A DNA stretch of 64,000 nt, from positions 32,001-96,000 of IMG/VR virus record IMGVR_UViG_3300042465_005116; one strand, written 5' to 3'. The notes beneath the pieces are model-generated. The model was not told the origin of the DNA, searched no databases, and was given only the letters and a program-made list of their open reading frames with translations. A program made the position numbers and the translations under genes. This DNA comes from a virus. Taxonomy: Duplodnaviria > Caudoviricetes. Shown here one piece after another: positions 10,808 through 28,330 of the stretch. Position 1 is the stretch's first letter. Every line of letters begins with the position of its first letter.

Positions 10808-10927
10808 TTAGTGATTTTTATAAACGAATGGGTCTCTTTTACGGAGTTCTTCTAAACGTTTTTTATATTGTTTTTTTAATTTACGTTGTTTGAACCAATC
10901 TGTTATTTTTTTAATAAGCTTTTTCAT
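10808..10927 (-). CDS. Small basic hypothetical protein, 39 aa (below ORF-track cutoff)
   Basis: Manual translation MKKLIKKITDWFKQRKLKKQYKKRLEELRKRDPFVYKNH*; fills the gap and overlaps the upstream gene end. Confidence 0.6.
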   Translation of the reverse strand: MKKLIKKITDWFKQRKLKKQYKKRLEELRKRDPFVYKNH

Positions 10928-12320
10928 TAATAGTTTTTTTTAAGTTAATTATAAATTCACTTTCAATTTCATCTTTATTATTTGCGTATTCAAACAATAA
11001 ATTTCTATTATAAATAAGTATTTCAAAAATTGATTTATACCACTCATTTAATTCTTCAAAAGATAATGAATTTAATCTCATAATTTCGGCATATATGGAT
11101 TCCATACGTTCTGCATCATCTTTTATATTATCATACTCTTCATTTATAAATGGAGAAAATGTTTTAAATCCTAATTTTTTTAATTCAACAAGTGCACCTG
11201 ACTTATTAACCATTATAAATGGTTGTAAGTGTCCAATTGGTTTCCATGTCTTTTCGGAAAGATATAATCCGGTTTCATAAAAATTAGTTTCTGATAAAAT
11301 ATGAATATATGAATTTAAATAAGGTTCTTTATTTTCAAAATTAAATCCCCAAACTGATTCTATATCGTCATAATCAATTGTTTGTTTTTTTAGTTTAATT
11401 ATATTTTGAAATTCTTTATATGCACTTAATGCTAAATTACTAGTGTGTAAATGATGTGAAAAAAATGAAAGATTATTTTCTCTTTCAAACATATCAATAT
11501 CAAATGAAACTAAATTTTCTTTTATAAAATCAATACCTAATAATGAAAGTAATGTAATACGTTGTGGTCTTAATCGTCTATTCATAAATAAAAATTTATG
11601 TTTTCTAATAGAAAAATTAATATCACTTTCTTTTACAATAGTACTTGTATTATTAACGTGTTCCCAAAAATTATCCTTTACTCCATTAAAAATTTGTTGC
11701 ATTTCTAATGATTTCATTCTTAATGACCATCCCCAATAAATTACTTTCATTTTATCAGTAATATTATTTTCTAAACAAATTTTATTGTGCAGTTCCTCAA
11801 TATCAACACTAGAAATTGTGAATATAACTTTATTAGCGGGAATTTCATATTTTTTAAACAATTCGTATAAATACACTATTAAATGCTCTTCAAATACACC
11901 TTCAGTTGAAAAATTAATATGTAAATAAAAATTAGGTGTATTTTTTATTTCTGTTAATGCATGGGTTGATATAAAATCTATAAAATTCCATTCTGAAAAT
12001 TGAGTTTGTTTTCCTAAAAATTGTGAAAAACTTCCAAATGGTTCTACTAAATATACAAAACTTTTATTACTTTTTATTCTAATATCATAATACTCATTGA
12101 AGGATAATTTAGTATATAAGTTTGTATTTAAATTTAAATTTGCATTATAAACGGGTGGTTGTAAATAATTTTTAAAAAAATGTTCACTAACTGAACTATT
12201 TACTTCCCCACCTTCTTCAAAAAATTTGTAAGAATAAAAATAATTAAACGCGTTTGGAATCCAACCAGATGGGCCAAAGAAATCATAAACTGCGTGAAAA
12301 TTATCAATCGTATTATGCAT
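10911..12320 (-). CDS. Putative glycosyltransferase-like protein (paralog 1 of 3, SET-x-TEK-QPF-LGFKTF family)
   Basis: KFLFMNRRLRPQR and SETNFY..LSEKTWKPIGHLQPFIM..LGFKTF..EYD shared with 15543..16733 and 21505..22941; TEK motif reminiscent of GT10. Confidence 0.45.
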   Translation of the reverse strand: MHNTIDNFHAVYDFFGPSGWIPNAFNYFYSYKFFEEGGEVNSSVSEHFFKNYLQPPVYNANLNLNTNLYTKLSFNEYYDIRIKSNKSFVYLVEPFGSFSQFLGKQTQFSEWNFIDFISTHALTEIKNTPNFYLHINFSTEGVFEEHLIVYLYELFKKYEIPANKVIFTISSVDIEELHNKICLENNITDKMKVIYWGWSLRMKSLEMQQIFNGVKDNFWEHVNNTSTIVKESDINFSIRKHKFLFMNRRLRPQRITLLSLLGIDFIKENLVSFDIDMFERENNLSFFSHHLHTSNLALSAYKEFQNIIKLKKQTIDYDDIESVWGFNFENKEPYLNSYIHILSETNFYETGLYLSEKTWKPIGHLQPFIMVNKSGALVELKKLGFKTFSPFINEEYDNIKDDAERMESIYAEIMRLNSLSFEELNEWYKSIFEILIYNRNLLFEYANNKDEIESEFIINLKKTINEKAY

Positions 12321-12858
12321 AGTATAATTCAGGGTATTCTGCTAATACATGAATACCAATATTTTCGGTTGCGTATTTATATGATAATTCAACGTCTTGC
12401 CAAGTCTTTAAATCGTGAAATTCTATATTAGGACACATTGATTTAAATTCATCTATATAATTTCCTTTATGTTGATGACCAGGGTCTAATGGTTTATCAG
12501 AACCCTTACCTACTCTAATTAAAATATGAGGATTCCATTGACCATTTGACATTTTCTTAATTTTATCTAAATGATTTACCAATTGATTTGATGCACAAAT
12601 TAAAAAATCCCAACGAGGATAAAATGTAACAACTTTATGACCAGCCATAGCTAATCCTAAACTCATACCTAATTGAGTCTCTTCCATTACTGGAGTTTCT
12701 ATCATTTTTTCTTTTGGTAATCCCTCAATTGTTTTTGACATTGGATTTCCATAATAAACTATTTGTTGACCAATAAATATAGTTGATTCATCTTGCATAA
12801 TAGTTTTCATAGCAGTTGTCAATGCATCAACATATGGTGTAAATTGTGGTGTACTCAT
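12313..12858 (-). CDS. TPP-dependent enzyme, E1-beta/transketolase pyrimidine-binding domain (truncated, no C-terminal domain)
   Basis: ETPVMEETQLGMSLGLAMAG, DFLICASNQLVNHLDK, IRVGKG..GHQH. Confidence 0.85.
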   Translation of the reverse strand: MSTPQFTPYVDALTTAMKTIMQDESTIFIGQQIVYYGNPMSKTIEGLPKEKMIETPVMEETQLGMSLGLAMAGHKVVTFYPRWDFLICASNQLVNHLDKIKKMSNGQWNPHILIRVGKGSDKPLDPGHQHKGNYIDEFKSMCPNIEFHDLKTWQDVELSYKYATENIGIHVLAEYPELYYA

Positions 12859-12866
12859 TTTTTAAT

Positions 12867-13592
12867 TTAATTTGGTTGCCAATTATCTTTTTTTAATTTT
12901 TTAATTATTGATTCTGCGACACATTTATGTCCTTTTAGATTAAGATGTATATCATTTTTTTGTAATCCTTGTGATACAAAATCAGATGCTATTGTTACAT
13001 TGTATTCATCTCTATGTAGAAAGTATTCAAATGAATTTTTTGTATCACCATCTATTTCTATATCAACATGTCTATCTTTAAAATATTTTTGATATAATGG
13101 ATGATTTGGAAATTCTTCATACCAACTAAGTGTTACAACTTTAACACCCTCCGATTCCCATTTAGTAATTTCATTATTTACAAATTCAATTTGCTGTTCT
13201 ATTGACATTACATCACCAGTCAACCAACCTTCCTTTGTACGAATTTTATTTACATAATCTCTATATTGTGATGTAAATTGATATATTATTAATCCCATTT
13301 TTGATATTGGTAGATTAACTGTTTCCTGTAAATAACCATTTACATAATCTTCTATATTTCTTACATTTGAACCACCATTTCCACTATTAGCAATATCCCA
13401 CATTTTGTATTCATTTGCTACGATTCTTAAAAATCTATTTTCATCTTTAAACTTAATGTGGTCTTCAGTTAGGGTGTAATCAAATCGATGATATTCTTTT
13501 AACGCTGGTAAATCTGGTAGATTACTATAAAAATATAATCCCTCACCCCACGTGAACGAACAACCGATACCCAATACACCCTTTGTATTCAT
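12867..13592 (-). CDS. SGNH/GDSL-like hydrolase (possible O-acyl transferase/esterase)
   Basis: Block I GCSFTWGEG, block II GNGGSN, block V DIHLNLKGH. Confidence 0.68.
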   Translation of the reverse strand: MNTKGVLGIGCSFTWGEGLYFYSNLPDLPALKEYHRFDYTLTEDHIKFKDENRFLRIVANEYKMWDIANSGNGGSNVRNIEDYVNGYLQETVNLPISKMGLIIYQFTSQYRDYVNKIRTKEGWLTGDVMSIEQQIEFVNNEITKWESEGVKVVTLSWYEEFPNHPLYQKYFKDRHVDIEIDGDTKNSFEYFLHRDEYNVTIASDFVSQGLQKNDIHLNLKGHKCVAESIIKKLKKDNWQPN

Positions 13593-14584
13593 TATGGTTT
13601 TGAATTTGGATTATATAAATGTTTATTTGCTTTATACCACTCAATGGTTTCTTTAAGAGCTTCTTTTAGATTTCTCTTTGGTTTCCATCCTAAATCATTA
13701 ATCTTTTTAGAAGATAATAATCGGATAGGAATCATTGGTGCCTTATTATTTACAAATTCAATTGGGTTAGTATTACCATCTAATTCTTTAATGGTTGCAA
13801 GTGTTTCATTTACTGTAAATCCTTCACCATAACATACATTAAAAATATCGTATGTATCATTATTCTCTGCTACAAAGATAAACCCATCTGCCATATCTTC
13901 AACGTGTAGTAAATCTCGTACTTCCGTTCCATCACCCCAAACTGGTATTGGATTTAAACCATCTGCTACTTTACGAATGTTTGCCGGAGTAACGTGACAC
14001 TTTTCAAAATCAAACTTATCATTTGGGCCGAATGCGTTTGAAGGTCTAACAATTAAACATTGCATTGGTTCGTGAATTTGGTTAGAAAAGAAATCACATA
14101 ACATTTCGCCATATCTTTTCATACCACCAACTGCTTTGTAAACTGGTAACATAGGAGTTGCGTGAATATTCATATCCTCAGTACAAAATTCAGTACCCAT
14201 ATCTGGATACGTTGTGTTTGATGAAATAAATAAAAATTTACGAACTTTGTTTTTCCAACTTTGCTCTAATAAATTTACATTCATCTCTACATTTGGAGTA
14301 ACGTGTAATAGTGGATTAAATTTAGTATCCAATGCGTTTGATGTGTTTGCTGCACAATGGAATACTACATCAACATCTTTACTGATTAACTGACAAAACT
14401 CTGCAGTTTGTAAATCACCTTTGATATGTTCTATTTCCGATGTTCCTTCAAAATCGTTTCTCAAATCTCTACTGAAAGAGGTTGAGCGAAGGTTTCGATA
14501 ACCCTTCTCATATAATAATCTTAATAAATGTGAACCTATAAATCCACTTGCACCCGTAACTAAAACTTTGTCTGTTTTTTTCAT
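13592..14584 (-). CDS. NAD-dependent epimerase/reductase (GDP-L-fucose synthase-like extended SDR)
   Basis: VLVTGASGFIG, VFHCAA, RPSNAFGP, VWGDGTEVRDLLHVED. Confidence 0.9.
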   Translation of the reverse strand: MKKTDKVLVTGASGFIGSHLLRLLYEKGYRNLRSTSFSRDLRNDFEGTSEIEHIKGDLQTAEFCQLISKDVDVVFHCAANTSNALDTKFNPLLHVTPNVEMNVNLLEQSWKNKVRKFLFISSNTTYPDMGTEFCTEDMNIHATPMLPVYKAVGGMKRYGEMLCDFFSNQIHEPMQCLIVRPSNAFGPNDKFDFEKCHVTPANIRKVADGLNPIPVWGDGTEVRDLLHVEDMADGFIFVAENNDTYDIFNVCYGEGFTVNETLATIKELDGNTNPIEFVNNKAPMIPIRLLSSKKINDLGWKPKRNLKEALKETIEWYKANKHLYNPNSKP

Positions 14585-14587
14585 AAC

Positions 14588-15553
14588 TTATTTTTTGTAT
14601 TCATTTAAATAATAATCAATTGTATGTCTTAATCCTGTCTTTAAGGATATTTTTTGTTTAATTCCAAATGATTCTGCTCTTTCAGTGCTCATTAATCTTT
14701 TCTCATCACCATTTGGTTTTGTTGGGTCCCAGTTTATTTCAACTTTTTCACCATACATCTCTTCGTATATTTCTACAAGAGTTTCTGCAAGTTGTTTAAT
14801 TGTTACACCTGTTCCACTACCTAAATTTATTGGTTGTGTTAATTTTTGTTCGTATGCCTGAATAATTCCATCAGCAACATCTCCTGCATAGATAAAATCT
14901 CTAATTGGAGAACCATCTCCCCAACATACTAATGGATGTTCTTTTTCACCAAATAAACGTTTGATTAGGGATGCAATGACGGTAGATTCTGGACTAAAGT
15001 TATCGTGTCTACCATAAATGTTTGCCGGTCTTACAATTGATACTTTATTCCAATCGTATGATACTGAATATACTTCTGCTTGAAGTTCTCCAAGTCTCTT
15101 AGCCCAACCTGCGTATTTATCCTTTTCTGATGGGAACGTTTTCCAAACATCATCTTCATAAAATACTTCCGCCGGTTGATATACTCCAACTGTCGATGTG
15201 TAAACATACCATTCTACATTTTCTAAACGTGCAGCTTCCATCATATTGGTATTAAACTGCAACATTGGTACGAAATAATCTGCGGGTTGTTCGGCTGCTC
15301 TTTTTGGAGAACCCTTTACGCCTGCAATGTGGAAAATTATATCCTGCCCTTCAACTACTCTTTTACAATTTTTGAATTCTCTCAAATCAGCTTTAATAAA
15401 CTGATAGTTATCTACATTGTATTTTTCTAATTGATTTTCGGGAGTATTAATATCCACTGCGGTTACAAATGCTCCTCTTTGAATACATTTGTCAACCATA
15501 TAATTACCAACTAAGCCGTTGGCACCTGTTATCAAAACCTTTTTACCATTCAT
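14588..15553 (-). CDS. NAD-dependent epimerase/reductase (GDP-sugar epimerase-like extended SDR)
   Basis: VLITGANGLVG, IFHIAG, RPANIYG, WGDGSPIRDFIYAGD, INLGSG. Confidence 0.9.
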   Translation of the reverse strand: MNGKKVLITGANGLVGNYMVDKCIQRGAFVTAVDINTPENQLEKYNVDNYQFIKADLREFKNCKRVVEGQDIIFHIAGVKGSPKRAAEQPADYFVPMLQFNTNMMEAARLENVEWYVYTSTVGVYQPAEVFYEDDVWKTFPSEKDKYAGWAKRLGELQAEVYSVSYDWNKVSIVRPANIYGRHDNFSPESTVIASLIKRLFGEKEHPLVCWGDGSPIRDFIYAGDVADGIIQAYEQKLTQPINLGSGTGVTIKQLAETLVEIYEEMYGEKVEINWDPTKPNGDEKRLMSTERAESFGIKQKISLKTGLRHTIDYYLNEYKK

Positions 15554-16733
15554 TTTCTATTGAATTTAAAATTTTACTAAATTCATCTACTTCCCAAAAG
15601 GTTTGTAGATGTTTTTTATTATATATACATATATCTAAAACTGATTTATAGTTTTTTTCACACTCCTCTAATGACCACTCACTAATTTGGGTTATTAAAT
15701 CAAATATTTTTATTAATCGGTCTTCATTATCAATAATTGAATCATATTTTTCATCCCAAATAGAATCGAATGTTTTGAATCCTAATTCTTTTAATTTTTT
15801 TAAATAATTTGGCGATGATAAAACTATAAATGGTTGTAAACACATTATTGGTTTTAATATTTTTTCCGTAAAAAATATTTGACCATCAGTAAAACACGTT
15901 TCTGTTACAATATGAAAATATGAATCTAAATAATGTTGTTTAAAAAAAGTGTTTCCAACATGGAATCCTTGAATTGATTTTAATCTATTTTGGGTATCCA
16001 ACTCCATTGGTATCTTTGATGTTACCGATTCCTTATATTTTTCTAAATATTTTAATTTTTCAAAATTATTTTCATGCAAATTCATTAATAATGAAAACAA
16101 TGATTTTTTATATAAATTTTCTTTTTCAAAAAATAATGATAAATAGTATCTATGAGGGCGTTGTGAATTTCTATTTAAACATAAAAAATGTTTATTTCGA
16201 TGTGTAATATTACGCACTTCTTCAATGGTCGGTATATCTGATATATAATTTAAATCGTTTAATTCATTTGGATGGTAATTACACATCACAATAAAATGTA
16301 GAGTTGTAAATATTTTAAAATTAGTATTTGTATCTAAAAAATTTTGATTTGAATCCAATAAAATTAAATGAGTTTCATCTAATTCAAATCTATTCAATTC
16401 TTTTATTAAATTATCAAAAAAATCAGATACTATTTCTGTTGCCTCTGCAATTGAGGCCAATAAAATTTTAGTTTTGTTTTGTTTTATTGTTTCAATAAAT
16501 TCTATTGGTAAGGTATCTAATAATGTTTTACCATTTTTATCTTTTCTATAAAAATCTCGTAATGATTCTCTACATTCTAATAAAAATATATTTTTGGTAG
16601 ATGTTGTTTTGTAATTAAAACTTTTATCAAAATTTGGATTATTTATAATATAGTTATACATGCCGGATTGATGAAATAATTCACTTCCATTTGATTCATC
16701 ATTACCAAATACAAAATTTAACGTATTACTCAT
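15543..16733 (-). CDS. Putative glycosyltransferase-like protein (paralog 2 of 3)
   Basis: HFLCLNRNSQRPHR; VTETCF..FFTEKILKPIMCLQPFIV..LGFKTF..EKYD. Confidence 0.45.
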   Translation of the reverse strand: MSNTLNFVFGNDESNGSELFHQSGMYNYIINNPNFDKSFNYKTTSTKNIFLLECRESLRDFYRKDKNGKTLLDTLPIEFIETIKQNKTKILLASIAEATEIVSDFFDNLIKELNRFELDETHLILLDSNQNFLDTNTNFKIFTTLHFIVMCNYHPNELNDLNYISDIPTIEEVRNITHRNKHFLCLNRNSQRPHRYYLSLFFEKENLYKKSLFSLLMNLHENNFEKLKYLEKYKESVTSKIPMELDTQNRLKSIQGFHVGNTFFKQHYLDSYFHIVTETCFTDGQIFFTEKILKPIMCLQPFIVLSSPNYLKKLKELGFKTFDSIWDEKYDSIIDNEDRLIKIFDLITQISEWSLEECEKNYKSVLDICIYNKKHLQTFWEVDEFSKILNSIENEW

Positions 16734-17734
16734 TATTTTCTAATTATTTTTTTTATAGAATTTCTAACAAATTTATTTTCATGTTTAAAACTATCAAATA
16801 AAGATTCGTTTTGTATATATCTCTTTTGACACATTTTATCAAACATAGTATCACCTAATAATATTTGTTGATGTGATATTACTAAGTCTGAAATATTATC
16901 TTTGATATATTGCTTTATTCCATCTACTATTTTTTGTTTATTTTCAAAATCAGATTCAGTTATTTCCCAATCACTATTTACAAATTTACCATCTATTAAA
17001 TCAATATATGTCCCAACTTTATCCACAAAAACAGATTCAAAAAAGATTATATTATCTTTAAATTTTGATTCGTAAAATGGATATAATCCAATTGCATCTT
17101 TTATAGGTAAATTACCTTTATATGTAAAATACTTGCCTCTGAATTTATAACCATAAATTTTTTCTAAATAGTATTGAGTAGTTCCTTGATATCCACTATC
17201 TACCATTAAAATATTTTGTGCCGAACCAATTGTTGTATCAATATACTCTTTATATTCAATTTGAAGTTTTTTTGATTTTGTTATAATTAATTCAACCCAA
17301 TCACTTAAATCTGGCAATCCCTTTGTTGTATCAATCCATTGTTTTGGAACGTTTATTTTAATACCAAATCTATCAAATAATAAATCATTTATATCACCTT
17401 CATATCTGTGTAACTCAAACGATTTATATATTTCAATTTCAGTTGTAAACGATATCATTGATGCTAATTTACGAGAAGTTTTAAAATACACACTATTTGG
17501 CAATTTGTATTTATCTTTATAGGTTTCCCATATATTTTTTAAAAAATATCCTTCTCTGGAATTAAATAGAATTAAATCTGCTCCATCTAAATTATCAATT
17601 AACCATTTAAAATAATTGAATACCAATGGGCCAAAGAATATATATCCTAAATCAAATACTGATTTTGGATTTTTAGTATGTTCTTTATCTAAAAAATTAT
17701 AATCCATAAACTTTGAAACATGATATTCCAACAC
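16733..17734 (-). CDS. Protein resembling the C-terminal region of HAD-associated proteins of polysaccharide loci
   Basis: FNSREGYFL and MVDSGYQGTTQ motifs; real start may be ATG at 17707. Confidence 0.45.
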   Translation of the reverse strand: MLEYHVSKFMDYNFLDKEHTKNPKSVFDLGYIFFGPLVFNYFKWLIDNLDGADLILFNSREGYFLKNIWETYKDKYKLPNSVYFKTSRKLASMISFTTEIEIYKSFELHRYEGDINDLLFDRFGIKINVPKQWIDTTKGLPDLSDWVELIITKSKKLQIEYKEYIDTTIGSAQNILMVDSGYQGTTQYYLEKIYGYKFRGKYFTYKGNLPIKDAIGLYPFYESKFKDNIIFFESVFVDKVGTYIDLIDGKFVNSDWEITESDFENKQKIVDGIKQYIKDNISDLVISHQQILLGDTMFDKMCQKRYIQNESLFDSFKHENKFVRNSIKKIIRK

Positions 17735-18134
17735 TATTCCACATTTGTATTATTTCTTCATCATCATCATAAGCACAGAATACGTCTGATTTGATTATAG
17801 TTTCATATACTTTCTTTTTATACACCGATGCTTTTAAAAAATATGAACTACGATTTCGCATAATTAATTGGTCGTATTCTATTTCATATTTTTTTAACCA
17901 TTCTTCCGTAACGCTTTTAACTGATTCTGGTCTTCCTGTTAAAATAATAACTTCAAATCCATCTTTTTTATATTTTTTTGCCAAATCAATCATAGGATAT
18001 AATGGTTTATCATTTTTTATAAGTTCTACACTATGTGCAATATCCCAATTAATTTTTCCGTTTTCTTTTTTTGCTATAGCAAATCTTTCATTACTAATAC
18101 AAAGTGTATTATCTATATCAATTATTACTTTCAT
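17697..18134 (-). CDS. HAD-family phosphatase (T4 PseT 3'-phosphatase-like)
   Basis: IIDIDNTL motif I, ILTGRP motif II, YDDD motif IV. Confidence 0.85.
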   Translation of the reverse strand: MKVIIDIDNTLCISNERFAIAKKENGKINWDIAHSVELIKNDKPLYPMIDLAKKYKKDGFEVIILTGRPESVKSVTEEWLKKYEIEYDQLIMRNRSSYFLKASVYKKKVYETIIKSDVFCAYDDDEEIIQMWNSVGISCFKVYGL

Positions 18135-19336
18135 AAATCTCTTACACCTTGTTTTTCATAACTAACTGGTACTTTAATTCCGGTGTTACATCCATTACAA
18201 TTATCACAAAATGTAATATATCCTAAATCAGTATAACCTAAATCAAATTTTAATAATTCTTCTTTTGAAATTGTCTTTATATCAACATAATCATTTTCAT
18301 TTAATGGGAATATTTTTGTTCTAACTGCTGATGTATTAAGATGACAATAATAAAACTTACCATCATTTAATCCTCTAAATGGGGCAGTACACGAATCAAA
18401 GTGTTTTATTAATTCATCAGTTGGTAATTTTTTAGAAACCCTTAAATCACCAAAATCATACCATTCAATTTCATTCCTAACATAATGATTAATATTATTA
18501 TTTTTATAAACATCTAAAACTTTTGTTATTTTACTTTTTATAAATTCTAATTTATCACTATAATCACTAACACTTAAAATAACATCATTATCCTTTAATA
18601 ACTGGATAATAGTATCTTTTGGTAAAATTGTACCATTTGTAGTGATTATTAGTTTATCAATTTTGGTTATATAGTTTTCTAATATGTGTTTGATTACATT
18701 TTCTATATTTGGATATAAAAATGGCTCTCCGCCAACTAAATGAAAAACACTTACATAATCTACAATCTTAAAATAGGAATCTATATCAGAAATTATCGTA
18801 TCTAACTCCATGTGAACCGGGAATTCGTAATGCGGCATGAACATATTACAATGTGAGCAGTTCAAACTACATTTTTCGGTTACTAATACATCTGATTGGA
18901 ATATATGAACTATATTTTTGTATTTAAAGGGCCAAATTGATGCAATATTCTTATACCAAGTCCATTTTACATCATTTTTTTCTAAAAATTCTTTGTATTT
19001 TTGTTTATACACATCAGTTGTTACAATAACTTGTGTATTTGGTGTAATTTCAAAATTATCTATGTGAATTAGTTCAATATTTTTTCTTTTTAGTTCAATA
19101 TTTTTAGATTGATGATAAAAAGAACTAATTTCGTTGATATTATTTAAGGTAGTTGTATTTTTTACATCGTGGTCAACGATATATTTAATTTTTAACACAT
19201 TTTCACCTAATAATAAATCAATAGTTCTAATAAATTGGATGCATTCTTTACTTGCACCAAATAAAACATATTCAGTATCTAAGTTCCAATCTGAAATGAA
19301 CTTATCAAAATTATGTAACTCATTATTATATAACAT
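18131..19336 (-). CDS. Radical SAM protein with N-terminal accessory domain
   Basis: CSLNCSHC, VGGEPFLYP, TTNGT, C-terminal Cys cluster CDNCNGC. Confidence 0.9.
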   Translation of the reverse strand: MLYNNELHNFDKFISDWNLDTEYVLFGASKECIQFIRTIDLLLGENVLKIKYIVDHDVKNTTTLNNINEISSFYHQSKNIELKRKNIELIHIDNFEITPNTQVIVTTDVYKQKYKEFLEKNDVKWTWYKNIASIWPFKYKNIVHIFQSDVLVTEKCSLNCSHCNMFMPHYEFPVHMELDTIISDIDSYFKIVDYVSVFHLVGGEPFLYPNIENVIKHILENYITKIDKLIITTNGTILPKDTIIQLLKDNDVILSVSDYSDKLEFIKSKITKVLDVYKNNNINHYVRNEIEWYDFGDLRVSKKLPTDELIKHFDSCTAPFRGLNDGKFYYCHLNTSAVRTKIFPLNENDYVDIKTISKEELLKFDLGYTDLGYITFCDNCNGCNTGIKVPVSYEKQGVRDL

Positions 19337-19340
19337 ATTG

Positions 19341-19979
19341 TTAAAATACTACCCATTTACCTGTTCCGTAATGCGGATATTTTGATTTATATTTATAATA
19401 GATTACATCTTCTGGTATTTCTCTTTGAATTTCTCCCCAAGTATGTGAGGTTGGGGTATTTGTAGATACTTCATTATCTTCAACTACAAAATAAAGGGGT
19501 AAATTATGATTTCTAGCGTATTTATGTACTTCATAAAAGATTCCTGTTTCAAAAGTCATATCACCAATGAAACACCATACCTTTTTATCTTCACCTTTTA
19601 GTTTTATTGATTCAGCTGCACCTAAAGCAATTGGTAAAATCCCAGTTACTATTGCTGATGAGTAAAAATTACACTTTTTATTTACAATTGTTATACTTCG
19701 ACCATCTAAAATCTCATCTTTTAACCAAGATTCATCAATCCCATGCAAAAGTGCATGATAATGAGACCTCCAAGTAGAAAATACCCAATCATCTACCCCC
19801 ACTTTTTTGAATATTTCTATTAATTCATCCTCGTTTCCATTTGATAAATGTATTGGGCCTCGAATATCTCCTGTTTCCCAATGTTTAATAATATCATCTT
19901 CAAATTGAATGAGTTGTTCTTTTGTAAGATTACCATCAATCCATCTATCTTCGTGATAATTTAAATTTTTAATTTCCAT
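19341..19979 (-). CDS. TPP-dependent enzyme, E1-alpha-like (pyrophosphate-binding) subunit, short form
   Basis: GPIHLSNGNE, STWRSHYHAL, GDMTFETG...VVEDN (GDG..N TPP motif variant). Confidence 0.88.
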   Translation of the reverse strand: MEIKNLNYHEDRWIDGNLTKEQLIQFEDDIIKHWETGDIRGPIHLSNGNEDELIEIFKKVGVDDWVFSTWRSHYHALLHGIDESWLKDEILDGRSITIVNKKCNFYSSAIVTGILPIALGAAESIKLKGEDKKVWCFIGDMTFETGIFYEVHKYARNHNLPLYFVVEDNEVSTNTPTSHTWGEIQREIPEDVIYYKYKSKYPHYGTGKWVVF

Positions 19980-20553
19980 TTTTATCTCTATTTGAAAGTA
20001 TTGGTTGTGCTACGGGCCATTCAACATTAAATCGTTTATCGTTAAACACTATTGTTTTTTGTTTATTCTCATCGTTATATTCACCTTCATATGCCATTTT
20101 GTAAAAAAAGATAGAATTATCCTCCATCACATAATGACCATTAGCAAACATTGGTGGAATTAGAACTTGAGTACCAGTTTCCGGTGAAATTATAAAAGAT
20201 TCCCATTTACCATAAGTTGGTGAGTTTGGTCTAACATCCATTACAACCAAATATATACGACCATGCAGACAACTTACTAATTTCCAAGTCTTTTCATCAT
20301 AGTGCATTCCTCTCAATACACCTACTTTTGATTTTGAGAACCTATCGTGTTTAAATTCTAACCCATTGTTGCGTTCAGCGGCGGGCAACAAACGGTCATA
20401 ATACTCTGAGTGATAAGTTGTAGAGATTGAACCTCTATATTCGTAATACGTGGATGGTTGTACGATTTTTATCTCTGGTAATACCAATCCATTGTAATAG
20501 TGAAAATCATTCCACTCTCGTTCTTTGTAAAATATACTACGTCCTGTTGCCAT
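19969..20553 (-). CDS. rmlC: dTDP-4-dehydrorhamnose 3,5-epimerase family (cupin)
   Basis: SKSKVGVLRGMHY, KLVSCLHG, DVRPNSPTYGKW, IPPMFANG. Confidence 0.9.
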   Translation of the reverse strand: MATGRSIFYKEREWNDFHYYNGLVLPEIKIVQPSTYYEYRGSISTTYHSEYYDRLLPAAERNNGLEFKHDRFSKSKVGVLRGMHYDEKTWKLVSCLHGRIYLVVMDVRPNSPTYGKWESFIISPETGTQVLIPPMFANGHYVMEDNSIFFYKMAYEGEYNDENKQKTIVFNDKRFNVEWPVAQPILSNRDKNGN

Positions 20554-21508
20554 AACTTAAAGGGAATCCATTTCTATATTTTGAAGATAAGTCTTGGATT
20601 AAAATTTTATATGTTTTTATTAATTCTACGATTCCATCATCTAAACTATATTGTGGAGTCCAACCTAATGCTTCTAATTTAGAATTAGAAACAATATAAT
20701 CTCTTTTATCGGGGTCTTCATAATAATCCGAATATGTGATTGCAAAATCGGGTACATATTCTTTGATTTTTTCTACTAATTGCTGTTTTGATAAATTAGC
20801 GTTTGAAAGGCCCACATTAAATACGTCTCCTTTTAATTTTTCATAATTTTCTATCATATACACAAATGTATTTGCAACATCTCTGATATGAATGTAGTTT
20901 CTTATGAAATTTTTCTCAAAAATGGTGATGTACTTATCAGTTAATGCTTTGTAAACAAATTCGTTAACAAGTAAGTCCATTCTCATTCGTGGTGATGAAC
21001 CAAAGACGGTGGCAAGTCTAATTGAAATACCACCATAGTTTAATACTTCTCTCTCAGCATTAACTTTGGTTACACCATAATGAGAAATGGGGTTTAGTGG
21101 ACTCTCTTCAGTACACTCACCATTCTCTCCTATCCCATACCCACTATTTGTGTTGGGGTATATAATCTTTTTATTAGTATTCTTTATTCTATCACATATA
21201 AACTTTACTTGAGTATAATTGACTGCAGTAGCAAGGTCTTTATCTCTATCACATGCAGGAAATCCTACGATTGCTGCCAGAGGAATTATTACATCTGCTT
21301 CATCTACATATTTTGAAAGTTTTTCCTGGTCTCTAACATCCCCATAAACAAATTCAAAATTCTTTCTCCAACTATAATGTATTAATGATGTTTGATTGTA
21401 CATTAAATTATCATAAACTGTAAGTTTAGTAACTCCACCATTATTAAATAGACGTTCAATTAAAACTGAACCTAAATAACCTGCACCACCTGTAATTAAA
21501 ATATTCAT
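20537..21508 (-). CDS. NAD-dependent NDP-sugar epimerase/dehydratase
   Basis: ILITGGAGYLG, canonical YGVTK, RLATVFG, RNYIHIRD. Confidence 0.92.
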   Translation of the reverse strand: MNILITGGAGYLGSVLIERLFNNGGVTKLTVYDNLMYNQTSLIHYSWRKNFEFVYGDVRDQEKLSKYVDEADVIIPLAAIVGFPACDRDKDLATAVNYTQVKFICDRIKNTNKKIIYPNTNSGYGIGENGECTEESPLNPISHYGVTKVNAEREVLNYGGISIRLATVFGSSPRMRMDLLVNEFVYKALTDKYITIFEKNFIRNYIHIRDVANTFVYMIENYEKLKGDVFNVGLSNANLSKQQLVEKIKEYVPDFAITYSDYYEDPDKRDYIVSNSKLEALGWTPQYSLDDGIVELIKTYKILIQDLSSKYRNGFPLSYGNRT

Positions 21509-22941
21509 ATTAAATCTTTATTTAAAGCTTTATAAATTGTGTTTCCTAAATATTCGGGTAATAAATAACTTTGATATATTTTTACTAAATTATTAAAATT
21601 ATGTTCTAATACTTCAAACATATCAAAATAAATTTCATGTATTTCATCAATATCTAATTTAGATATTTTTAAGATTTCATTGTATGCTAATTCGAATCGT
21701 TTGTTTGTATTTATTTCTAAATCATATGATTCATCAACCCATTTATCAAATGTTTTAAACCCCAACTCTTTTAATGATTTTAATGTATATGGATTACCAA
21801 ATATAATAAATGGTTGTAAATTTATTACGGGTCTTAATGTTTTTTCAGTTATAAATGTATAATCAGAATGACAAGATGTTTCACACACAATATTAAAATA
21901 TGAATTTAAAAAATGCTCTTTTGTACTAATTTGATTATCTGCTCTAGCACATACATCAGCATCATCGTGGTCTAATTTTAATGGGTATGATTCATCAACA
22001 AATTTTTTTAAAATTTCTCTATCCTCTTTTGAAAATTTTAAAGTTTCAAATTCTAAATTACTAATTGATTTTAAAACATTATCATATTCTGATAACGCAC
22101 GTGATTCATATAATGAAACTAATGATTCTTTTAAAATTCCATCATTATATAATTTAGAAATAACATATGGACGATGTAATCTATTTGAATTACGATTATA
22201 TGATAAAAATTTATATTTTCTTATATTGGAATATGAATTAAAAGCATCATCATTTTTAACAAAAGTTAATTCTTTATTTGTCATAGAATCCGGTCTACCA
22301 TATACACGTGGGTCAAACCCCATTAAGATATACCAGGGAAATGTTTCGACTGAAAATTCATATTTTTGTGAATCTTTTTTTATTTGAAAATTATTATTTA
22401 CAAAAAAAACATCTTCTTTTTTAAATCCGTTTTTACTAACAAACCCATTAAAAAGTTCAATAGTTTTATCTGTTATTTCATAAGAACCTTCTCTCCAATC
22501 CATAATAAGTAAAATACAATTTTTATTATTTTTAATTAAATTGATTGTTGCTGGAGCTAATTTAAAATTATCAAACCCAAATTGTCTATGAACTGATATA
22601 GTATCCGCTTCTAATATTACTACATTTAAAATATCATCTTTTAATTCGGTTTCATTTATTTGGTATGGTAATTTAAATTTTACTATTGGTATTCTGTGTG
22701 CTTCATTTGAAAATTTTGATTTATACTCTTTTAAATAATTTAAAAATGGAGTATCAACATATCGTAATTCATATTTTTCTTTTGGTCTTGTTGGACGAGT
22801 TAAATGAACATCAAAATCTTTTATTTTTTTTAAATTATTTAAAAAAATTTCAGGCAAATCTTGTTGAGCATATCCAGAAAAAAGATATCCATTTGGTGTT
22901 ATATATTCACTTATTATATTAATTTTAGAATATAAAGACAT
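21505..22941 (-). CDS. Putative glycosyltransferase-like protein (paralog 3 of 3)
   Basis: KFLSYNRNSNRLHR; VCETS..FITEKTLRPVINLQPFII..LGFKTF..ESYD. Confidence 0.45.
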   Translation of the reverse strand: MSLYSKINIISEYITPNGYLFSGYAQQDLPEIFLNNLKKIKDFDVHLTRPTRPKEKYELRYVDTPFLNYLKEYKSKFSNEAHRIPIVKFKLPYQINETELKDDILNVVILEADTISVHRQFGFDNFKLAPATINLIKNNKNCILLIMDWREGSYEITDKTIELFNGFVSKNGFKKEDVFFVNNNFQIKKDSQKYEFSVETFPWYILMGFDPRVYGRPDSMTNKELTFVKNDDAFNSYSNIRKYKFLSYNRNSNRLHRPYVISKLYNDGILKESLVSLYESRALSEYDNVLKSISNLEFETLKFSKEDREILKKFVDESYPLKLDHDDADVCARADNQISTKEHFLNSYFNIVCETSCHSDYTFITEKTLRPVINLQPFIIFGNPYTLKSLKELGFKTFDKWVDESYDLEINTNKRFELAYNEILKISKLDIDEIHEIYFDMFEVLEHNFNNLVKIYQSYLLPEYLGNTIYKALNKDLI

Positions 22942-22943
22942 AC

Positions 22944-23726
22944 TTAAATTAGAGTAGAAGATTTTTTATTTATACTATTCATTAATTCAACTTCGTAATT
23001 TTTAAAAGTTTCAATATACCACTGTCTTCTATGTCTTAGGTGGTTACAATGACCAGATTTATCTGATATTGTTGAGTATGTGCTTGAAACTCCATCATAT
23101 TCAAACCAAGTGTTTTCATATTTTGCATCATGCATTATTTCATCAAAATATATTTCGTCTTCTAATACTATTTTTGGAATAAAATAATCAACTGCTTTTA
23201 AGTAATCAATACTACCTGCCCAAAACCCATTATGTGGTATTGAATTTTTGTGATGATATGCACATCCTATATAAGTGTTACACCAACTGTAATCAATAAG
23301 GTCACCTGTATATTTATTTGCTGATGACATCATTAATTCATCTAATTCATTGTAGAAACAAACTACAAATTCTTTGTTTACACTATCATGTGAAACAAAT
23401 ACCTTTAACCATTCTTGATTTTCAATTTTTTGTGGTACAAAGACGTGGTTAAATTTTGGTTCTGCATCCGGTGTTTCCTTTGTCCACCAATCAAATTTAA
23501 TATATCCATCTAATGTTATATACAACCCTAAATGTAATCCTGGTTTACCAATAATACAACATGCATTATTTTCACCTTCATCTTTTTTAATTGCTTCAAA
23601 ATTTGTTTTAAATTTAGTAAACAAAGTAAAATCTCCTTGTACCCAAGCAGCTGAATTCTTATCTTTTAATCCATGTTGGTTTTCTATACAAATTTCCCAC
23701 CAATCTTTATAATTTATTTCTATCAT
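22944..23726 (-). CDS. Probable LamG/concanavalin A-like beta-sandwich protein
   Basis: Aromatic beta-rich pattern with TYIGCA...FWAGSIDYLK, matching the LamG-like inserts of the neighbouring GT7 genes. Confidence 0.5.
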   Translation of the reverse strand: MIEINYKDWWEICIENQHGLKDKNSAAWVQGDFTLFTKFKTNFEAIKKDEGENNACCIIGKPGLHLGLYITLDGYIKFDWWTKETPDAEPKFNHVFVPQKIENQEWLKVFVSHDSVNKEFVVCFYNELDELMMSSANKYTGDLIDYSWCNTYIGCAYHHKNSIPHNGFWAGSIDYLKAVDYFIPKIVLEDEIYFDEIMHDAKYENTWFEYDGVSSTYSTISDKSGHCNHLRHRRQWYIETFKNYEVELMNSINKKSSTLI

Positions 23727-25138
23727 AATTTTGTGTTTTTACATATGTTCCAAAAATTTTCAAACTCAGGAAAGGTCTTTAAAAAATCAGTTCCTCTTCT
23801 CTTATCGTGGTTTGAAAAGAATTGATAAAAATTATATCTTCTCATATTTTTTAACCAATCTTCCTCATCAGATATATACCAATCATAAATTCTTTTTATT
23901 TTTGCAATTTCCATATCACCATAACCTGCTTCGGTTTTTGCTGCGTATGGAGTTGCTAAAAAATCCATTAATTTTGCTTGATTTAATATATCATTACCCC
24001 AATCATGTGAATCATCTGCCATTAAAGTTTTAACTGCTTGGTGTTGTGGGTGTCTTAAATAAGAACTATCTAATAATACGGCGTTTGGCCAATATCTATC
24101 AACACTCTTATGATTATATTTTATATCGTAGATATCAGTAATCAGTCCACCAAAATTTGGAACTGATAACGCGTTATAAGTTGTCATAAATGTGATATTT
24201 ACGCGAGGACATTTTAATAAAATTTTATTAACATTATCCATAAACTGATTATACACTAATCCGTTTCTAATATATTCCGCTTGTTCTCCCTTTGAATCGC
24301 ATGATGTAAATATTACAAAATCTTTTACCTTATCACCTTCCGTAATTCTATTTATTTTTTCTATAAATTTATCAATTAATTTATCAGGTACACCTAAGTT
24401 TGAATTGATTGCTAATGATAAATTTTTATTTGGATTTTTTTCATCAATTATATAATCTAATACCTTCCATGTATCTTTTGACATTAGAGGTTCACCACCA
24501 GTGATTCTAAAGGTATGTAAATCCCTATATAACTCAGGCCACCATTTCCAAAATGCTTCTACATATGGATTTTCTTGTGATAATGGTATTGGCATTTTAT
24601 CTTCTTGTCTAAGATATGCTAAATCATTAAAATTATCAGTAGTTGGATAACCACCATGCTCTTCGATTTCCTCCATCCATCTAGTTGAGAATTGAGGTGA
24701 ACAATATGAACATTTAAAATTACATGCGTTTGAAAAAGAAACTTCTGCGTACTTTGGATTATAATCTGCTTTCCAATCCAATGCTTTAATCTCATTCATA
24801 TGTGGATAAGACCAAGGTTCGCCTGATTTAAATATTCTATCTGAAAACTCCGTTGAATTATCTTCAACATTCCAACAATAATCACATTCACTTGGACGTT
24901 TTCCTTCTAACATTTCTTTTCTACGAATTTTTTTGAATCGCGTGTTGTGAAGTGCAGATGGGTTTCGTCTAATTTCTCTTTCAGGTATTGGGTGAGTACC
25001 CGGATGGTGACAAGAGTGAGTATGCCCTATTTGTAAGTGCATTGTTACTTGTGTCCACTTTGCTAAACACATACCACAACCGGTTTTACTTAATTCATTC
25101 TTAACTTTTAAAGAATGCTCGTGAAATTTATTTTCCAT
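23723..25138 (-). CDS. Radical SAM protein with N-terminal twitch/SPASM-like Cys/His cluster
   Basis: CNFKCSYC, ITGGEP, INSN; N-terminal CLAKW..HSCHH..CDYCW. Confidence 0.88.
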   Translation of the reverse strand: MENKFHEHSLKVKNELSKTGCGMCLAKWTQVTMHLQIGHTHSCHHPGTHPIPEREIRRNPSALHNTRFKKIRRKEMLEGKRPSECDYCWNVEDNSTEFSDRIFKSGEPWSYPHMNEIKALDWKADYNPKYAEVSFSNACNFKCSYCSPQFSTRWMEEIEEHGGYPTTDNFNDLAYLRQEDKMPIPLSQENPYVEAFWKWWPELYRDLHTFRITGGEPLMSKDTWKVLDYIIDEKNPNKNLSLAINSNLGVPDKLIDKFIEKINRITEGDKVKDFVIFTSCDSKGEQAEYIRNGLVYNQFMDNVNKILLKCPRVNITFMTTYNALSVPNFGGLITDIYDIKYNHKSVDRYWPNAVLLDSSYLRHPQHQAVKTLMADDSHDWGNDILNQAKLMDFLATPYAAKTEAGYGDMEIAKIKRIYDWYISDEEDWLKNMRRYNFYQFFSNHDKRRGTDFLKTFPEFENFWNICKNTKL

Positions 25139-28073: not shown

Positions 28074-28305
28074 CTCTTGCCGGTCTATTTACTGAACCTA
28101 CTGTTTTAGCTTTTGCAATCATATAAAATTCATTTAAATACCATTCAATCCTTTCAGACCAAACATCTACTTCTAATGCATAAACCCAGTCGTTCATATC
28201 TTCCAATGTATCAGCAATACGTTCTAATGCTTTAGTACGTCTTTCTTCCAAATTTACGGATTCGCTTTTTGCCGTTTCGTTTCCTTTAATTAATTCCTTT
28301 GCCAT
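28009..28305 (-). CDS. Small acidic hypothetical protein
   Basis: 98-aa ORF filling the gap between GT7 paralogs; 3' end overlaps the next ORF. Confidence 0.6.
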   Translation of the reverse strand: MAKELIKGNETAKSESVNLEERRTKALERIADTLEDMNDWVYALEVDVWSERIEWYLNEFYMIAKAKTVGSVNRPARDAERTEPEIETNETEGDTPTA

Positions 28306-28330
28306 TTTTGTTTTGTTTTTTTTAAATTTA

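What the first reader, a model, noticed from the sequence alone, without database searches (positions are those of the whole stretch)
12313..19979. Split, minimal TPP enzyme pair among NDP-sugar genes: branched-chain sugar synthesis rather than pyruvate dehydrogenase
Seen: a 212-aa E1-alpha-like gene (19341..19979) abutting rmlC, and a 181-aa E1-beta-like gene (12313..12858) lacking its C-terminal domain. No E2, E3 or lipoyl domain is present in the window. Known: TPP enzymes such as YerE (yersiniose A) and AviB1/AviB2 (avilamycin eurekanate) add a pyruvate-derived two-carbon branch to NDP-4-keto sugars. Inference: the phage makes a C-branched sugar for its glycan.
Basis: partly seen in the sequence, partly recalled or inferred. 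Interest (0 to 1): 0.65.

Follow-up and report, generated by a model that had tools for sequence, protein, structure and literature searches.

The report
Two-piece mini thiamine enzyme in sugar pathway
Two short genes of this lake-water phage are the two halves of one stripped-down thiamine-dependent enzyme that sits among genes making a reactive 4-keto sugar nucleotide, so it most likely builds an unusual carbon-branched sugar rather than burning pyruvate.

Summary
ORF 19341-19979(-), 212 aa, is the diphosphate-binding (PP) half of an E1-type thiamine enzyme. ORF 12313-12858(-), 181 aa, is the pyrimidine-binding (Pyr) half. Both lack the C-terminal parts of true E1 subunits. They are one enzyme in two pieces: one PHROG profile covers both, they are fused in cyanophages and in many cellular MAG contigs, and no record with enough sequence has alpha without beta. 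It is not pyruvate dehydrogenase. The E2-docking domain is missing, and no E2 or lipoyl domain occurs in the window or in four complete related phage genomes.

The 'rmlC' is closest to Campylobacter GDP-4-keto-heptose 3,5-epimerases. The gene before it strongly matches PDB 6VO6, which I recall (unverified here) as the Cj1427 GDP-heptose C4-dehydrogenase. No 4,6-dehydratase is present. In DPANN archaea the beta half is fused to a 6VO6-type dehydrogenase or to a radical SAM/SPASM enzyme.

A two-carbon branch added to a GDP-4-keto sugar is therefore the best reading, but it is untested.

The scan found the same mini enzyme before on other phage DNA (e1-5339682) and reached the same conclusion. 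I rate it a new variant of a known kind.

The parts
19341..19979 (-). ALPHA: PP (diphosphate-binding) half of a minimal E1-type ThDP enzyme, 212 aa
   Evidence: E1_dh 8e-13; TIGR03182 82 bits; phrog_34187 positions 6-198 of 405. AF2 pLDDT 94. Best fold matches are human and bacterial E1 alpha, TM 0.64-0.69 on the query but about 0.39 on the target. Invariant in 100 relatives: H44, N49, E50, R71, H75, G139, D140, E167, N169, H203.
12313..12858 (-). BETA: Pyr (pyrimidine-binding) half of the same enzyme, 181 aa, no Transketolase_C domain
   Evidence: NF006667 1.1e-13; phrog_34187 positions 238-374 of 405. AF2 pLDDT 93.7. E1 beta N-terminal half: TM 0.87 on the query, 0.49 on the target. Invariant in 95 relatives: E54, E59, G68, R82, P123, G127, H130.
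20537..21508 (-). SDR323: sugar-nucleotide C4-dehydrogenase candidate (PDB 6VO6 type)
   Evidence: phmmer 3.8e-106, 358 bits, residues 2-303 to 6VO6/6VO8. Lies directly before the epimerase and ALPHA. A homologue of at least 45% identity is present in 63 of 75 related phage loci.
19969..20553 (-).
   Evidence: PF00908 3.6e-40. Best PDB matches are 8DB5/8DCO/7AN4/7M14, GDP-D-glycero-4-keto-D-lyxo-heptose 3,5-epimerases, at 162-166 bits, against 95 bits or less for true RmlC. An RmlC-type gene is present in 76 of 76 phage loci with room upstream.
14588..15553 (-). SDR321: GDP-fucose-synthase-like reductase, the gene most often lying between ALPHA and BETA
   Evidence: NF047922 128 bits. PDB matches are GalE/GDP-fucose synthase, with Y...K kept. 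Lies between ALPHA and BETA in 63 of 72 phage loci. The minimal loci read ALPHA-SDR321-BETA.
13592..14584 (-). SDR330: second GDP-fucose-synthase-like SDR
   Evidence: NF047922 144 bits. PDB 8RDG and 7ANH. Median 73% identity across related loci.
10911..12320 (-). 469-aa protein of a virus-only family (paralogues at 21505-22941 and 15543-16733), overlapping the end of BETA
   Evidence: No Pfam, NCBIfam or PHROG match. A family member follows BETA in 38 of 59 phage loci. Fused to BETA in phage locus L060. Atlas gives only a weak lead to GT10 fucosyltransferases.
16733..19336 (-). Optional module right after ALPHA: radical SAM (18131-19336), HAD phosphatase (17697-18134), 333-aa unknown (16733-17734)
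   Evidence: Radical_SAM 6e-12 and HAD_PNKP 6e-18; SPASM/twitch-type NCBIfam matches. Present in 18 of 82 loci, always as a block.
12867..13592 (-). 241-aa unknown protein just before BETA
   Evidence: No family except a weak arginyltransferase-like match, 1e-3. Homologues in 36 loci at about 26% identity.

Best explanation
The two ORFs encode the PP half and the Pyr half of one heteromeric, domain-minimal thiamine-diphosphate (ThDP) enzyme of the E1 (alpha-keto acid dehydrogenase 2) lineage. It works without E2 or E3.

Proposed pathway:
1. The 6VO6-type dehydrogenase SDR323 oxidises C4 of a host-supplied GDP-sugar (manno-heptose or mannose type).
2. The abutting cupin epimerises C3/C5 of the 4-keto intermediate.
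3. The alpha/beta enzyme decarboxylates a 2-oxo acid, most simply pyruvate, to the ThDP-bound acyl carbanion and adds it to the sugar ketone. This gives a C-branched (acetyl, then 1-hydroxyethyl) sugar nucleotide.
4. SDR321 and/or SDR330 reduce a remaining carbonyl.
5. The neighbouring transferases put the sugar on a phage or host glycan.

Shown here: the fold, the cofactor and catalytic residues, the pairing of the two halves, the absence of PDH partners, and the identity of the neighbouring enzyme families.

Inferred: the acceptor, the donor, the position of the branch and the fate of the sugar.
For: One enzyme in two pieces:
- phrog_34187 covers alpha at positions 6-198 and beta at 238-374.
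- Single-ORF fusions occur in cyanophages S-SM2 and P-TIM68 and in contigs of 15 or more cellular MAGs/SAGs.
- Every record with enough sequence that has alpha also has beta.

Active enzyme:
- Invariant GD...N metal ligands, Pyr-domain Glu59, and the two E1 histidines (alpha H203, beta H130) in 100 and 95 diverse relatives.
- Confident complete domains, pLDDT 94.

Not PDH:
- No Transketolase_C, E2 or lipoyl domain in four complete relatives, and no E2 or E3 in the window.

Keto-sugar link:
- SDR323 matches 6VO6 at 358 bits.
- The epimerase matches GDP-4-keto-heptose epimerases at 166 bits.
- SDR323, epimerase and ALPHA are contiguous, as in 41 of 75 related loci.
- In a Woesearchaeota contig, beta is fused to a 6VO6-type SDR.
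- In three other DPANN contigs, beta is fused to a radical SAM/SPASM enzyme.
- In SAR11, a gmd-like 4,6-dehydratase directly precedes alpha-beta.
- In a 735-kb phage, two NDP-hexose C-methyltransferases flank the pair.

Precedent:
- E1-type pairs (AviB1/B2, Pau11/12, AlmDI/DII, and KbDH-alpha/beta assayed in vitro) add a pyruvate-derived C2 branch to keto sugars (PMC4425429, PMC4753412, PMC12247030).
Against: - No assay exists, and no characterised member of this mini family is known.
- The characterised sugar-branching E1 pairs are full length (325 and 345 aa, PMC4425429).
- The fused clade sits in a different context (Zn-ADH, PfkB kinase, nucleotidyltransferase, GmhA). That context would also fit a chain-building reaction on a sugar phosphate.
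- Two Fcl-like reductases are not needed if C4 becomes a tertiary alcohol.
- The identification of 6VO6 as Cj1427 rests on my memory of Huddleston et al. 2020; the paper is not held.
- The related phages lack a sugar nucleotidyltransferase, so the starting sugar is unknown.
Confidence: 0.55

Rival explanations
1. The mini enzyme performs a different ThDP carboligation or ketol transfer on a sugar, not a C4 branch. Two examples: a transketolase- or DXS-like extension of an aldehyde or sugar phosphate to a higher-carbon sugar, or the use of a longer 2-oxo acid donor such as 2-oxoglutarate or a hydroxy-oxo acid.
For: - The fused clade (S-SM2, P-TIM68, a B. breve MAG, a Methanosarcinales MAG) lies beside Zn-ADH, a PfkB kinase, a nucleotidyltransferase and GmhA, that is, heptose-phosphate building genes.
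- A Pacearchaeota locus has an HldE-like kinase/nucleotidyltransferase.
- Beta's second-best fold matches are DXS.
- YerE relatives use C4-C8 donors (PMC9306805).
Against: - Sequence and fold rank E1 first for both halves.
- Both E1 histidines are kept.
- In the window's clade the immediate partners make and epimerise a 4-keto sugar nucleotide, not sugar phosphates.
- The review of E1-type branching enzymes finds only C2 donors (PMC12247030).
Confidence: 0.2
2. It is a plain decarboxylase. It removes CO2 from a 2-oxo acid, a small metabolite or a keto-acid sugar, and releases the aldehyde. No C-C bond to a sugar is formed.
For: - All E1-type enzymes catalyse decarboxylation as their first half-reaction.
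- Minimal two-domain ThDP enzymes known from the literature (sulfopyruvate and phosphonopyruvate decarboxylases; my own knowledge) are decarboxylases.
Against: - Those decarboxylases belong to the other ThDP superfamily, with the opposite domain order.
- No gene making a 2-oxo-acid sugar (NeuB/KdsA type) was seen among the annotated neighbours.
- Fusions to a C4-dehydrogenase and the tight operon with a 4-keto epimerase point to a ketone partner.
Confidence: 0.1
3. It is an auxiliary central-metabolism gene pair: a phage E1 that plugs into the host pyruvate, acetoin or 2-oxo acid dehydrogenase complex.
For: Best family names are PDH E1 alpha and beta. JGI annotates homologues as 'pyruvate dehydrogenase E1 component alpha subunit'.
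Against: - Scores are far below the family cut-offs: 82 against 394 bits, and 51 against 321 bits.
- The E1-beta C-terminal domain, which docks on E2 in solved complexes (1W85 title), is absent from the protein and from complete relatives.
- E2 and lipoyl domains are absent.
- The genes are never near energy-metabolism genes but always in glycan clusters.
Confidence: 0.03

Closest known systems
E1-type (alpha-keto acid dehydrogenase 2) sugar-branching pairs of actinomycete antibiotics: AviB1/AviB2, Pau11/Pau12, AlmDI/DII, KbDH-alpha/beta
   Same: A separate alpha (PP) and beta (Pyr) subunit of the E1 lineage, encoded without E2/E3 inside a deoxy/keto-sugar cluster. These pairs are proposed, and for KbDH shown in vitro, to add a pyruvate-derived C2 unit to a sugar ketone (PMC4425429, PMC4753412, PMC12247030).
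   Different: - Those subunits are full length (Pau11 325 aa, Pau12 345 aa). Here they are 212 and 181 aa, with the alpha C-terminal third and the whole beta C-terminal domain missing.
- Here the setting is phage or uncultured-microbe glycan clusters, not antibiotic clusters.
- The partners are GDP-heptose-type enzymes.
- The genes are often dispersed, or fused to each other or to other enzymes.
- The phylogenetic relation was not tested.
YerE / ErwE family (ALS-like ThDP flavoenzymes of O-antigen branched sugars)
   Same: The same logic: a nucleotide-4-keto sugar plus a 2-oxo acid gives a C4 acyl branch, followed by a reductase (PMC9306805, PMC12247030).
   Different: - A different ThDP superfamily and domain order (Pyr-middle-PP in one about 560-aa chain).
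- An ALS-like enzyme of that kind lies beside the mini pair in SAR11 and Woesearchaeota loci, so the two are not interchangeable copies.
Heterotetrameric E1 of pyruvate, branched-chain 2-oxo acid and acetoin dehydrogenase complexes
   Same: The fold of both halves, the ThDP/Mg motif, the catalytic Glu and the two active-site His residues.
   Different: - It lacks about 110-150 residues of alpha and about 145 of beta, including the E2-binding domain.
- No E2, E3 or lipoyl partner is present.
- The alpha branch is very long from AcoA in the tree.
Campylobacter jejuni capsule heptose pathway Cj1427 (C4-dehydrogenase), Cj1430/MlghB (C3/C5-epimerase), Cj1428/MlghC (C4-reductase)
   Same: The window's SDR323, cupin epimerase and Fcl-like SDRs are the closest relatives of these solved enzymes. 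The pathway makes and handles a GDP-4-keto-heptose without 6-deoxygenation (PMC10680097, PMC7949155).
   Different: - No ThDP enzyme is part of the Campylobacter pathway as described.
- The related phages lack the GmhA/kinase/nucleotidyltransferase steps, so they must start from a host sugar nucleotide.
Other minimal or split ThDP enzymes: sulfopyruvate decarboxylase ComD/ComE, phosphonopyruvate decarboxylase, split-gene transketolase (6YAJ)
   Same: ThDP enzymes reduced to, or divided into, PP and Pyr parts (own knowledge; 6YAJ appears among beta's fold matches).
   Different: ComDE and Ppd belong to the decarboxylase superfamily, with the order Pyr then PP. Split transketolase keeps the third domain. 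Neither lies in keto-sugar nucleotide clusters.

Membership tests
E1 component of 2-oxo acid dehydrogenase complexes (PDH/BCKDH/acetoin) | PP domain with the ThDP-Mg motif GDG-x(25-30)-N | tested here: met
   G139-D140-(M141)...E167-D168-N169. G139, D140 and N169 are invariant in 100 relatives. The third residue is M in the window's own clade, while the family consensus is G.
E1 component of 2-oxo acid dehydrogenase complexes (PDH/BCKDH/acetoin) | Pyr domain with the cofactor-activating Glu and the beta-subunit His | tested here: met
   E59 and H130 are invariant in 95 relatives. They align with the Glu of 'TPISE' and the His of 'AAQHS' in human E1 beta.
E1 component of 2-oxo acid dehydrogenase complexes (PDH/BCKDH/acetoin) | Full-length alpha (about 320-370 aa) and beta with a C-terminal Transketolase_C domain that docks on E2 | tested here: not met
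   Alpha covers profile 6-170 of 300 and beta covers 6-135 of 327. TM on the target is only 0.39 and 0.49. PF02780 is absent from 5 related phage records, 4 of them complete.
E1 component of 2-oxo acid dehydrogenase complexes (PDH/BCKDH/acetoin) | E2 (lipoyl acyltransferase) and E3 partners | tested here: not met
   PF00198 and PF00364 are absent from 4 complete relatives. tblastn with an E2 and an E3 finds nothing in the window. The window's own whole genome is not held.
E1-type sugar C-branching enzymes (AviB1/B2, Pau11/12, AlmDI/DII, KbDH) | Alpha+beta pair without E2/E3, encoded among enzymes that make a keto sugar | tested here: met
   6VO6-type dehydrogenase, then 4-keto epimerase, then ALPHA. 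The same association holds across phage, SAR11 and DPANN loci.
E1-type sugar C-branching enzymes (AviB1/B2, Pau11/12, AlmDI/DII, KbDH) | Common descent with the characterised pairs (tree placement) | not tested
E1-type sugar C-branching enzymes (AviB1/B2, Pau11/12, AlmDI/DII, KbDH) | Pyruvate-dependent acetyl transfer to a sugar ketone | not testable with these tools
   This needs an enzyme assay.
YerE-like ThDP flavoenzymes | Single chain with TPP_enzyme_N, M and C domains | tested here: not met
   Alpha has only a marginal TPP_enzyme_C match (2.9e-5) and no N or M domain. The domain order in the fused forms is PP then Pyr.
Transketolase / DXS | Best match to Transketolase_N or DXP_synthase_N, plus a third (C) domain | tested here: not met
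   DXP_synthase_N scores 25.9 bits against 48.5 for E1_dh. DXS ranks after all E1 beta chains in the fold search. No C domain is present.
phrog_34187 (phage protein family of unknown function) | Match to the 405-position profile | tested here: met
   Alpha 2.4e-49 at positions 6-198; beta 3.8e-22 at positions 238-374.

The most novel reading that the evidence does not exclude
Large aquatic phages, and many uncultured bacteria and DPANN archaea, use an undescribed smallest form of E1-type thiamine enzyme (PP plus Pyr domains only, about 390 residues in one or two chains). It docks on the enzyme that creates a sugar ketone, either a Cj1427-type dehydrogenase or a radical SAM/SPASM oxidase, and channels that unstable intermediate into a C-C bond. 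The product is a carbon-branched heptose or hexose not yet seen in any glycan. The phage displays this sugar on its own fibre glycoproteins.
Probability: 0.35. Interest if true: 0.75.

Novelty: new variant of a known kind. Interest (0 to 1): 0.6.

Why it matters
Homologues of these genes are annotated as 'pyruvate dehydrogenase E1' or 'transketolase central region'. In virome surveys they could be counted as central-carbon auxiliary genes. The evidence here says they belong to glycan synthesis.

If the chemistry is confirmed, three things follow:
- It would be the most compact E1-type carboligase known, which makes it attractive for biocatalysis of tertiary alcohols.
- It would add a branched higher-carbon sugar to the known sugar repertoire.
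- It would show that phages build chemically elaborate glycans with their own enzymes.

The family is large, with about 210 clusters at 50% identity, and it has no characterised member.

Tried and rejected
Contexts came from the search for related loci instead.
- The window's whole genome is not held. The E2/E3 test was therefore run on four complete relatives and, by tblastn, on the window.
No gmd match appeared, and no dTDP-glucose dehydratase match reached its cut-off in the relatives. The window's three SDRs score far below every 4,6-dehydratase model's cut-off and lack the dehydratase Asp/Glu after the catalytic Ser/Thr (sequence).
- I tested whether the radical SAM next to ALPHA is the same as the one beside the pair in a 735-kb phage and in Pacearchaeota. 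Those two are homologous to each other (3e-27). The window's radical SAM shares only the generic core with them.
- I first took the long beta ORFs of L106, L107 and L126 for SDR fusions like L105. BLAST and Pfam showed they are radical SAM/SPASM fusions.
- The 'no beta' loci turned out to be contig ends, flanks too short, or fusions missed by tblastn.
- Literature searches found no description of the mini family or of a ThDP step in heptose pathways.
- The PDB code 6VO6 could not be tied to Cj1427 in the held papers.
- PADLOC was not searched. Nothing suggested a defence role.

Full report
**Setting.** The window is AT-rich (25-38% G+C) and every sizeable ORF is on the minus strand. PHROG matches to portal, large terminase, baseplate wedge and tail fibre proteins mark it as a large T4-like phage. 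Earlier notes of this scan call it an uncultured lake-water phage. The finding lies in a block of about 20 kb of sugar-related genes, between the head/packaging genes and the tail-fibre gene.

**Observation.**
- Alpha (19341-19979, 212 aa) matches Pfam E1_dh over profile positions 6-170 of 300. It matches the PDH E1-alpha model TIGR03182 over 16-179 of 315, at 82 bits against a cut-off of 394.
- Beta (12313-12858, 181 aa) matches the PDH E1-beta model NF006667 over 6-135 of 327, at 51 bits against a cut-off of 321. Its Transket_pyr match falls below Pfam's threshold.
- I used a complete acetoin-dehydrogenase operon as probe (a bacterial contig filed under a phage name). AcoA aligns only with its first 187 of 320 residues and AcoB only with residues 6-136 of 339. 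The E2 and E3 find nothing in the window.

**The halves are complete, compact domains.**
- AlphaFold models on alignments of 100 and 95 natural relatives are confident, with pLDDT 94 and 93.7.
- For alpha, the best solved matches are E1 alpha of human PDH, Geobacillus PDH and Thermus BCKDH. TM is 0.64-0.69 normalised on alpha but about 0.39 on the target.
- For beta, the best matches are E1 beta chains, with TM 0.87 on beta and 0.49 on the target. DXS follows.
- So alpha lacks the C-terminal third of E1 alpha and beta lacks the whole third domain.

**The two genes are one enzyme.**
- A single phage family profile, phrog_34187 (405 positions, function unknown), matches alpha at 6-198 and beta at 238-374.
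- In cyanophages S-SM2 and P-TIM68 both parts are one annotated protein, named 'transketolase central region-containing protein'.
- I fetched 80 viral loci and 78 loci from cellular assemblies. Across these and four loci from the phage-genome collection, the arrangement was 17 fused, 48 adjacent, 71 with beta further downstream, 9 with beta upstream and 17 without a beta.
- The 17 'without' resolve as follows. Some are contig ends. Some have beta more than 10 kb away in the same record. One has beta on another contig of the same MAG. Two are fusions and one is an adjacent pair that tblastn missed. One is the full-length AcoB of the bacterial operon.
- No record with enough sequence has alpha alone.

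**It looks catalytically active.**
- In 100 diverse alphas, H44, N49, E50, D64, R71, H75, G139, D140, E167, N169 and H203 never vary.
- D140 and N169 are the metal ligands of the ThDP motif.
- H203 aligns with the His of the E1-alpha 'Y-x-G-H' motif of AcoA. The deletion relative to AcoA removes the segment between the motif Asn and this His, and everything after it.
- In 95 betas, E54, E59, G68, R82, P123, G127 and H130 never vary. E59 and H130 align with the cofactor-activating Glu and the active-site His of human E1 beta.

**It is not a dehydrogenase complex.**
- Five related phage records, four of them complete by CheckV, have no match to the E2 catalytic domain, the lipoyl domain or Transketolase_C. 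The same searches hit 10 to 14 of 14 control genomes.
- The third domain of E1 beta is the part that docks on E2 (solved complex 1W85). Without it, a link to a host complex is unlikely.

**The neighbours are more specific than 'NDP-sugar genes'.**
- SDR323 (20537-21508) matches PDB 6VO6/6VO8 at 3.8e-106, 358 bits, over its whole length. The next hit scores 76 bits. [quoted passage not shown] The held papers describe the enzyme (PMC10680097) but not the PDB code.
Four of them are named GDP-D-glycero-4-keto-D-lyxo-heptose 3- or 3,5-epimerases. True RmlC chains score at most 95 bits.
- SDR321 and SDR330 are GDP-fucose-synthase-like, as are the Campylobacter C4-reductases (PMC7949155).
- None of the SDRs reaches a dehydratase cut-off. 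The complete relatives have no gmd match and no dTDP-glucose dehydratase match above cut-off. Only one of five has a sugar nucleotidyltransferase.
- The module therefore resembles the Campylobacter scheme: oxidise C4, epimerise, reduce. It would act on a host-supplied GDP-sugar, with a ThDP enzyme inserted into the scheme.

**Conservation of the arrangement in the phage clade.**
- An RmlC-type gene is present in 76 of 76 loci with room, and lies within 650 bases upstream of alpha in 55 of 75.
- A homologue of SDR323 with at least 45% identity is present in 63 of 75 loci.
- The contiguous triad SDR323-epimerase-ALPHA occurs in 41 of 75.
- SDR321 lies between alpha and beta in 63 of 72.
- A member of the 469/478/396-aa family follows beta in 38 of 59.
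- The smallest versions read epimerase ... ALPHA-SDR321-BETA.
- Alpha is among the most conserved genes of the block, with a median identity of 74%.

**Wider family.**
- A profile search of 1.84 billion representatives gives 212 clusters at E<=1e-30 and 3,215 at 1e-10. The latter include ordinary E1 alpha.
- In a tree rooted on AcoA, the mini family splits into two parts. One is a SAR11/marine proteobacterial clade with adjacent genes (support 95), sister to a phage clade of 33 rows with dispersed genes (support 97) that holds the window. The other is a clade of DPANN archaea and assorted bacteria, with the fused forms nested inside it (support 99).
- Dispersal of the two genes is thus a derived trait of these phages.

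**Contexts outside the phage clade point the same way.**
- In Pelagibacter HIMB1412, a gmd-like 4,6-dehydratase directly precedes alpha-beta in a glycan locus. That locus also holds a PglK-like flippase, GT2 transferases, an ALS-like ThDP enzyme and a split transketolase.
- In a 735-kb phage, the order is C-methyltransferase, methyltransferase, unknown, BETA, radical SAM/SPASM, ALPHA, C-methyltransferase.
- In a Woesearchaeota contig, beta is fused to an SDR whose best solved relative is again 6VO6 (158 bits, next hit 118). The cluster also holds a C-methyltransferase fused to a 4,6-dehydratase, and an ALS-like ThDP enzyme.
- In three other DPANN contigs, beta is fused to a radical SAM/SPASM enzyme. 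A homologous radical SAM sits beside the pair in Pacearchaeota and in the 735-kb phage.
- In phage locus L060, beta is fused to a member of the 469-aa family.
- So beta is fused to an SDR of the 6VO6 (C4-dehydrogenase) type, and separately to a radical SAM/SPASM enzyme. Radical SAM/SPASM enzymes include alcohol-to-ketone dehydrogenases such as BtrN (my own knowledge). These fusions fit a ThDP enzyme that needs a freshly made sugar ketone.

**Mechanism.** I propose the following steps.
1. SDR323 makes the GDP-4-keto sugar.
2. The cupin equilibrates C3/C5.
3. Alpha/beta decarboxylates pyruvate and adds the hydroxyethyl-ThDP carbanion to C4.
4. An Fcl-like SDR reduces the acetyl side chain, or reduces unbranched 4-keto sugar in a parallel route.

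This is the logic of YerE, and of the E1-type pairs AviB1/B2, Pau11/12, AlmDI/DII and KbDH-alpha/beta. KbDH has been shown in vitro to couple pyruvate to sugar-like ketones (PMC12247030, PMC4425429, PMC4753412, PMC9306805). The donor, the position of the branch and the product are inferred.

The main rival is another carboligation. The fused clade lies with GmhA, a PfkB kinase, a nucleotidyltransferase and a Zn-ADH, which would also suit chain building on a sugar phosphate.

**Novelty and limits.**
- E1-type sugar branching is known, but only with full-length subunits in actinomycete antibiotic clusters. I found no paper on this domain-minimal family, on a ThDP step beside Cj1427-type enzymes, or on such genes in phages.
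- This scan met the same mini enzyme before in other phage genomes. One follow-up (e1-5339682) reached the same reading. My analysis arrived at it independently, before that look-up.

Noticed in passing
L106:10624-12258 (also L107, L126): In three DPANN archaeal contigs the Pyr half of the mini ThDP enzyme is fused to a radical SAM/SPASM domain. A homologous radical SAM lies beside the pair in a Pacearchaeota contig (L116) and in the 735-kb phage LR756501 (L084). A ThDP and radical-SAM partnership on sugars has, to my knowledge, not been described.
   Followed up: partly
L060:8054-9829; window 10911-12320, 15543-16733, 21505-22941: Three paralogues of a virus-only family without any Pfam, NCBIfam or PHROG match lie in the cluster. 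One overlaps the end of BETA, and in phage L060 a family member is fused to BETA. The Atlas gives only a weak lead to GT10 fucosyltransferases. Possibly these are the transferases for the product.
   Followed up: partly
P0140, P0182, P0125 (representatives library): Some alpha homologues are interrupted by inteins (Hint/intein splicing domain; LAGLIDADG). One carries an N-terminal APH-like kinase domain.
   Followed up: partly
window 13592-14584: In the alignment of SDR330 to PDB 8RDG, the catalytic Tyr of the YxxxK motif falls on Val152, and a Tyr lies three residues earlier. The protein is nevertheless highly conserved (median 73%). It may be an atypical SDR, or the alignment may be shifted.
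   Followed up: no
window 23723-25138 and 18131-19336: Two radical SAM enzymes lie in the sugar block. One is a clear member of the twitch-domain family NF033640 (329 bits). The other, directly after ALPHA, belongs to an optional radical SAM-HAD-unknown module found in 18 of 82 related loci.
   Followed up: partly
L093 (Pelagibacter sp. HIMB1412, 1.3-Mb contig): A SAR11 surface-glycan locus carries three different ThDP enzymes side by side: the mini alpha/beta pair, an ALS-like enzyme and a split transketolase. They sit behind a gmd-like 4,6-dehydratase.
   Followed up: partly
L086, L087, L088: Contigs binned as Flavobacteriales, Pelagibacterales and Saccharibacteria MAGs carry the phage-type cluster (GT7, twitch radical SAM, dispersed alpha). 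L086 and L088, the two that were in the tree, fall inside the phage clade of the alpha tree. They are probably phage DNA in MAG bins, so they are unreliable as host evidence.
   Followed up: no
L085 (CAKLQF020000010.1, 'Acinetobacter phage MD-2021a'): This record of the phage collection is ordinary bacterial chromosome (trpB, aroC, lipA, acoABCL, budC), not phage.
   Followed up: no
window 25171-26610: A glycosyltransferase combines animal-type GT7 (beta-1,4-galactosyltransferase) N and C regions with a LamG/concanavalin-like domain. Two similar genes follow at 26610-29818.
   Followed up: no
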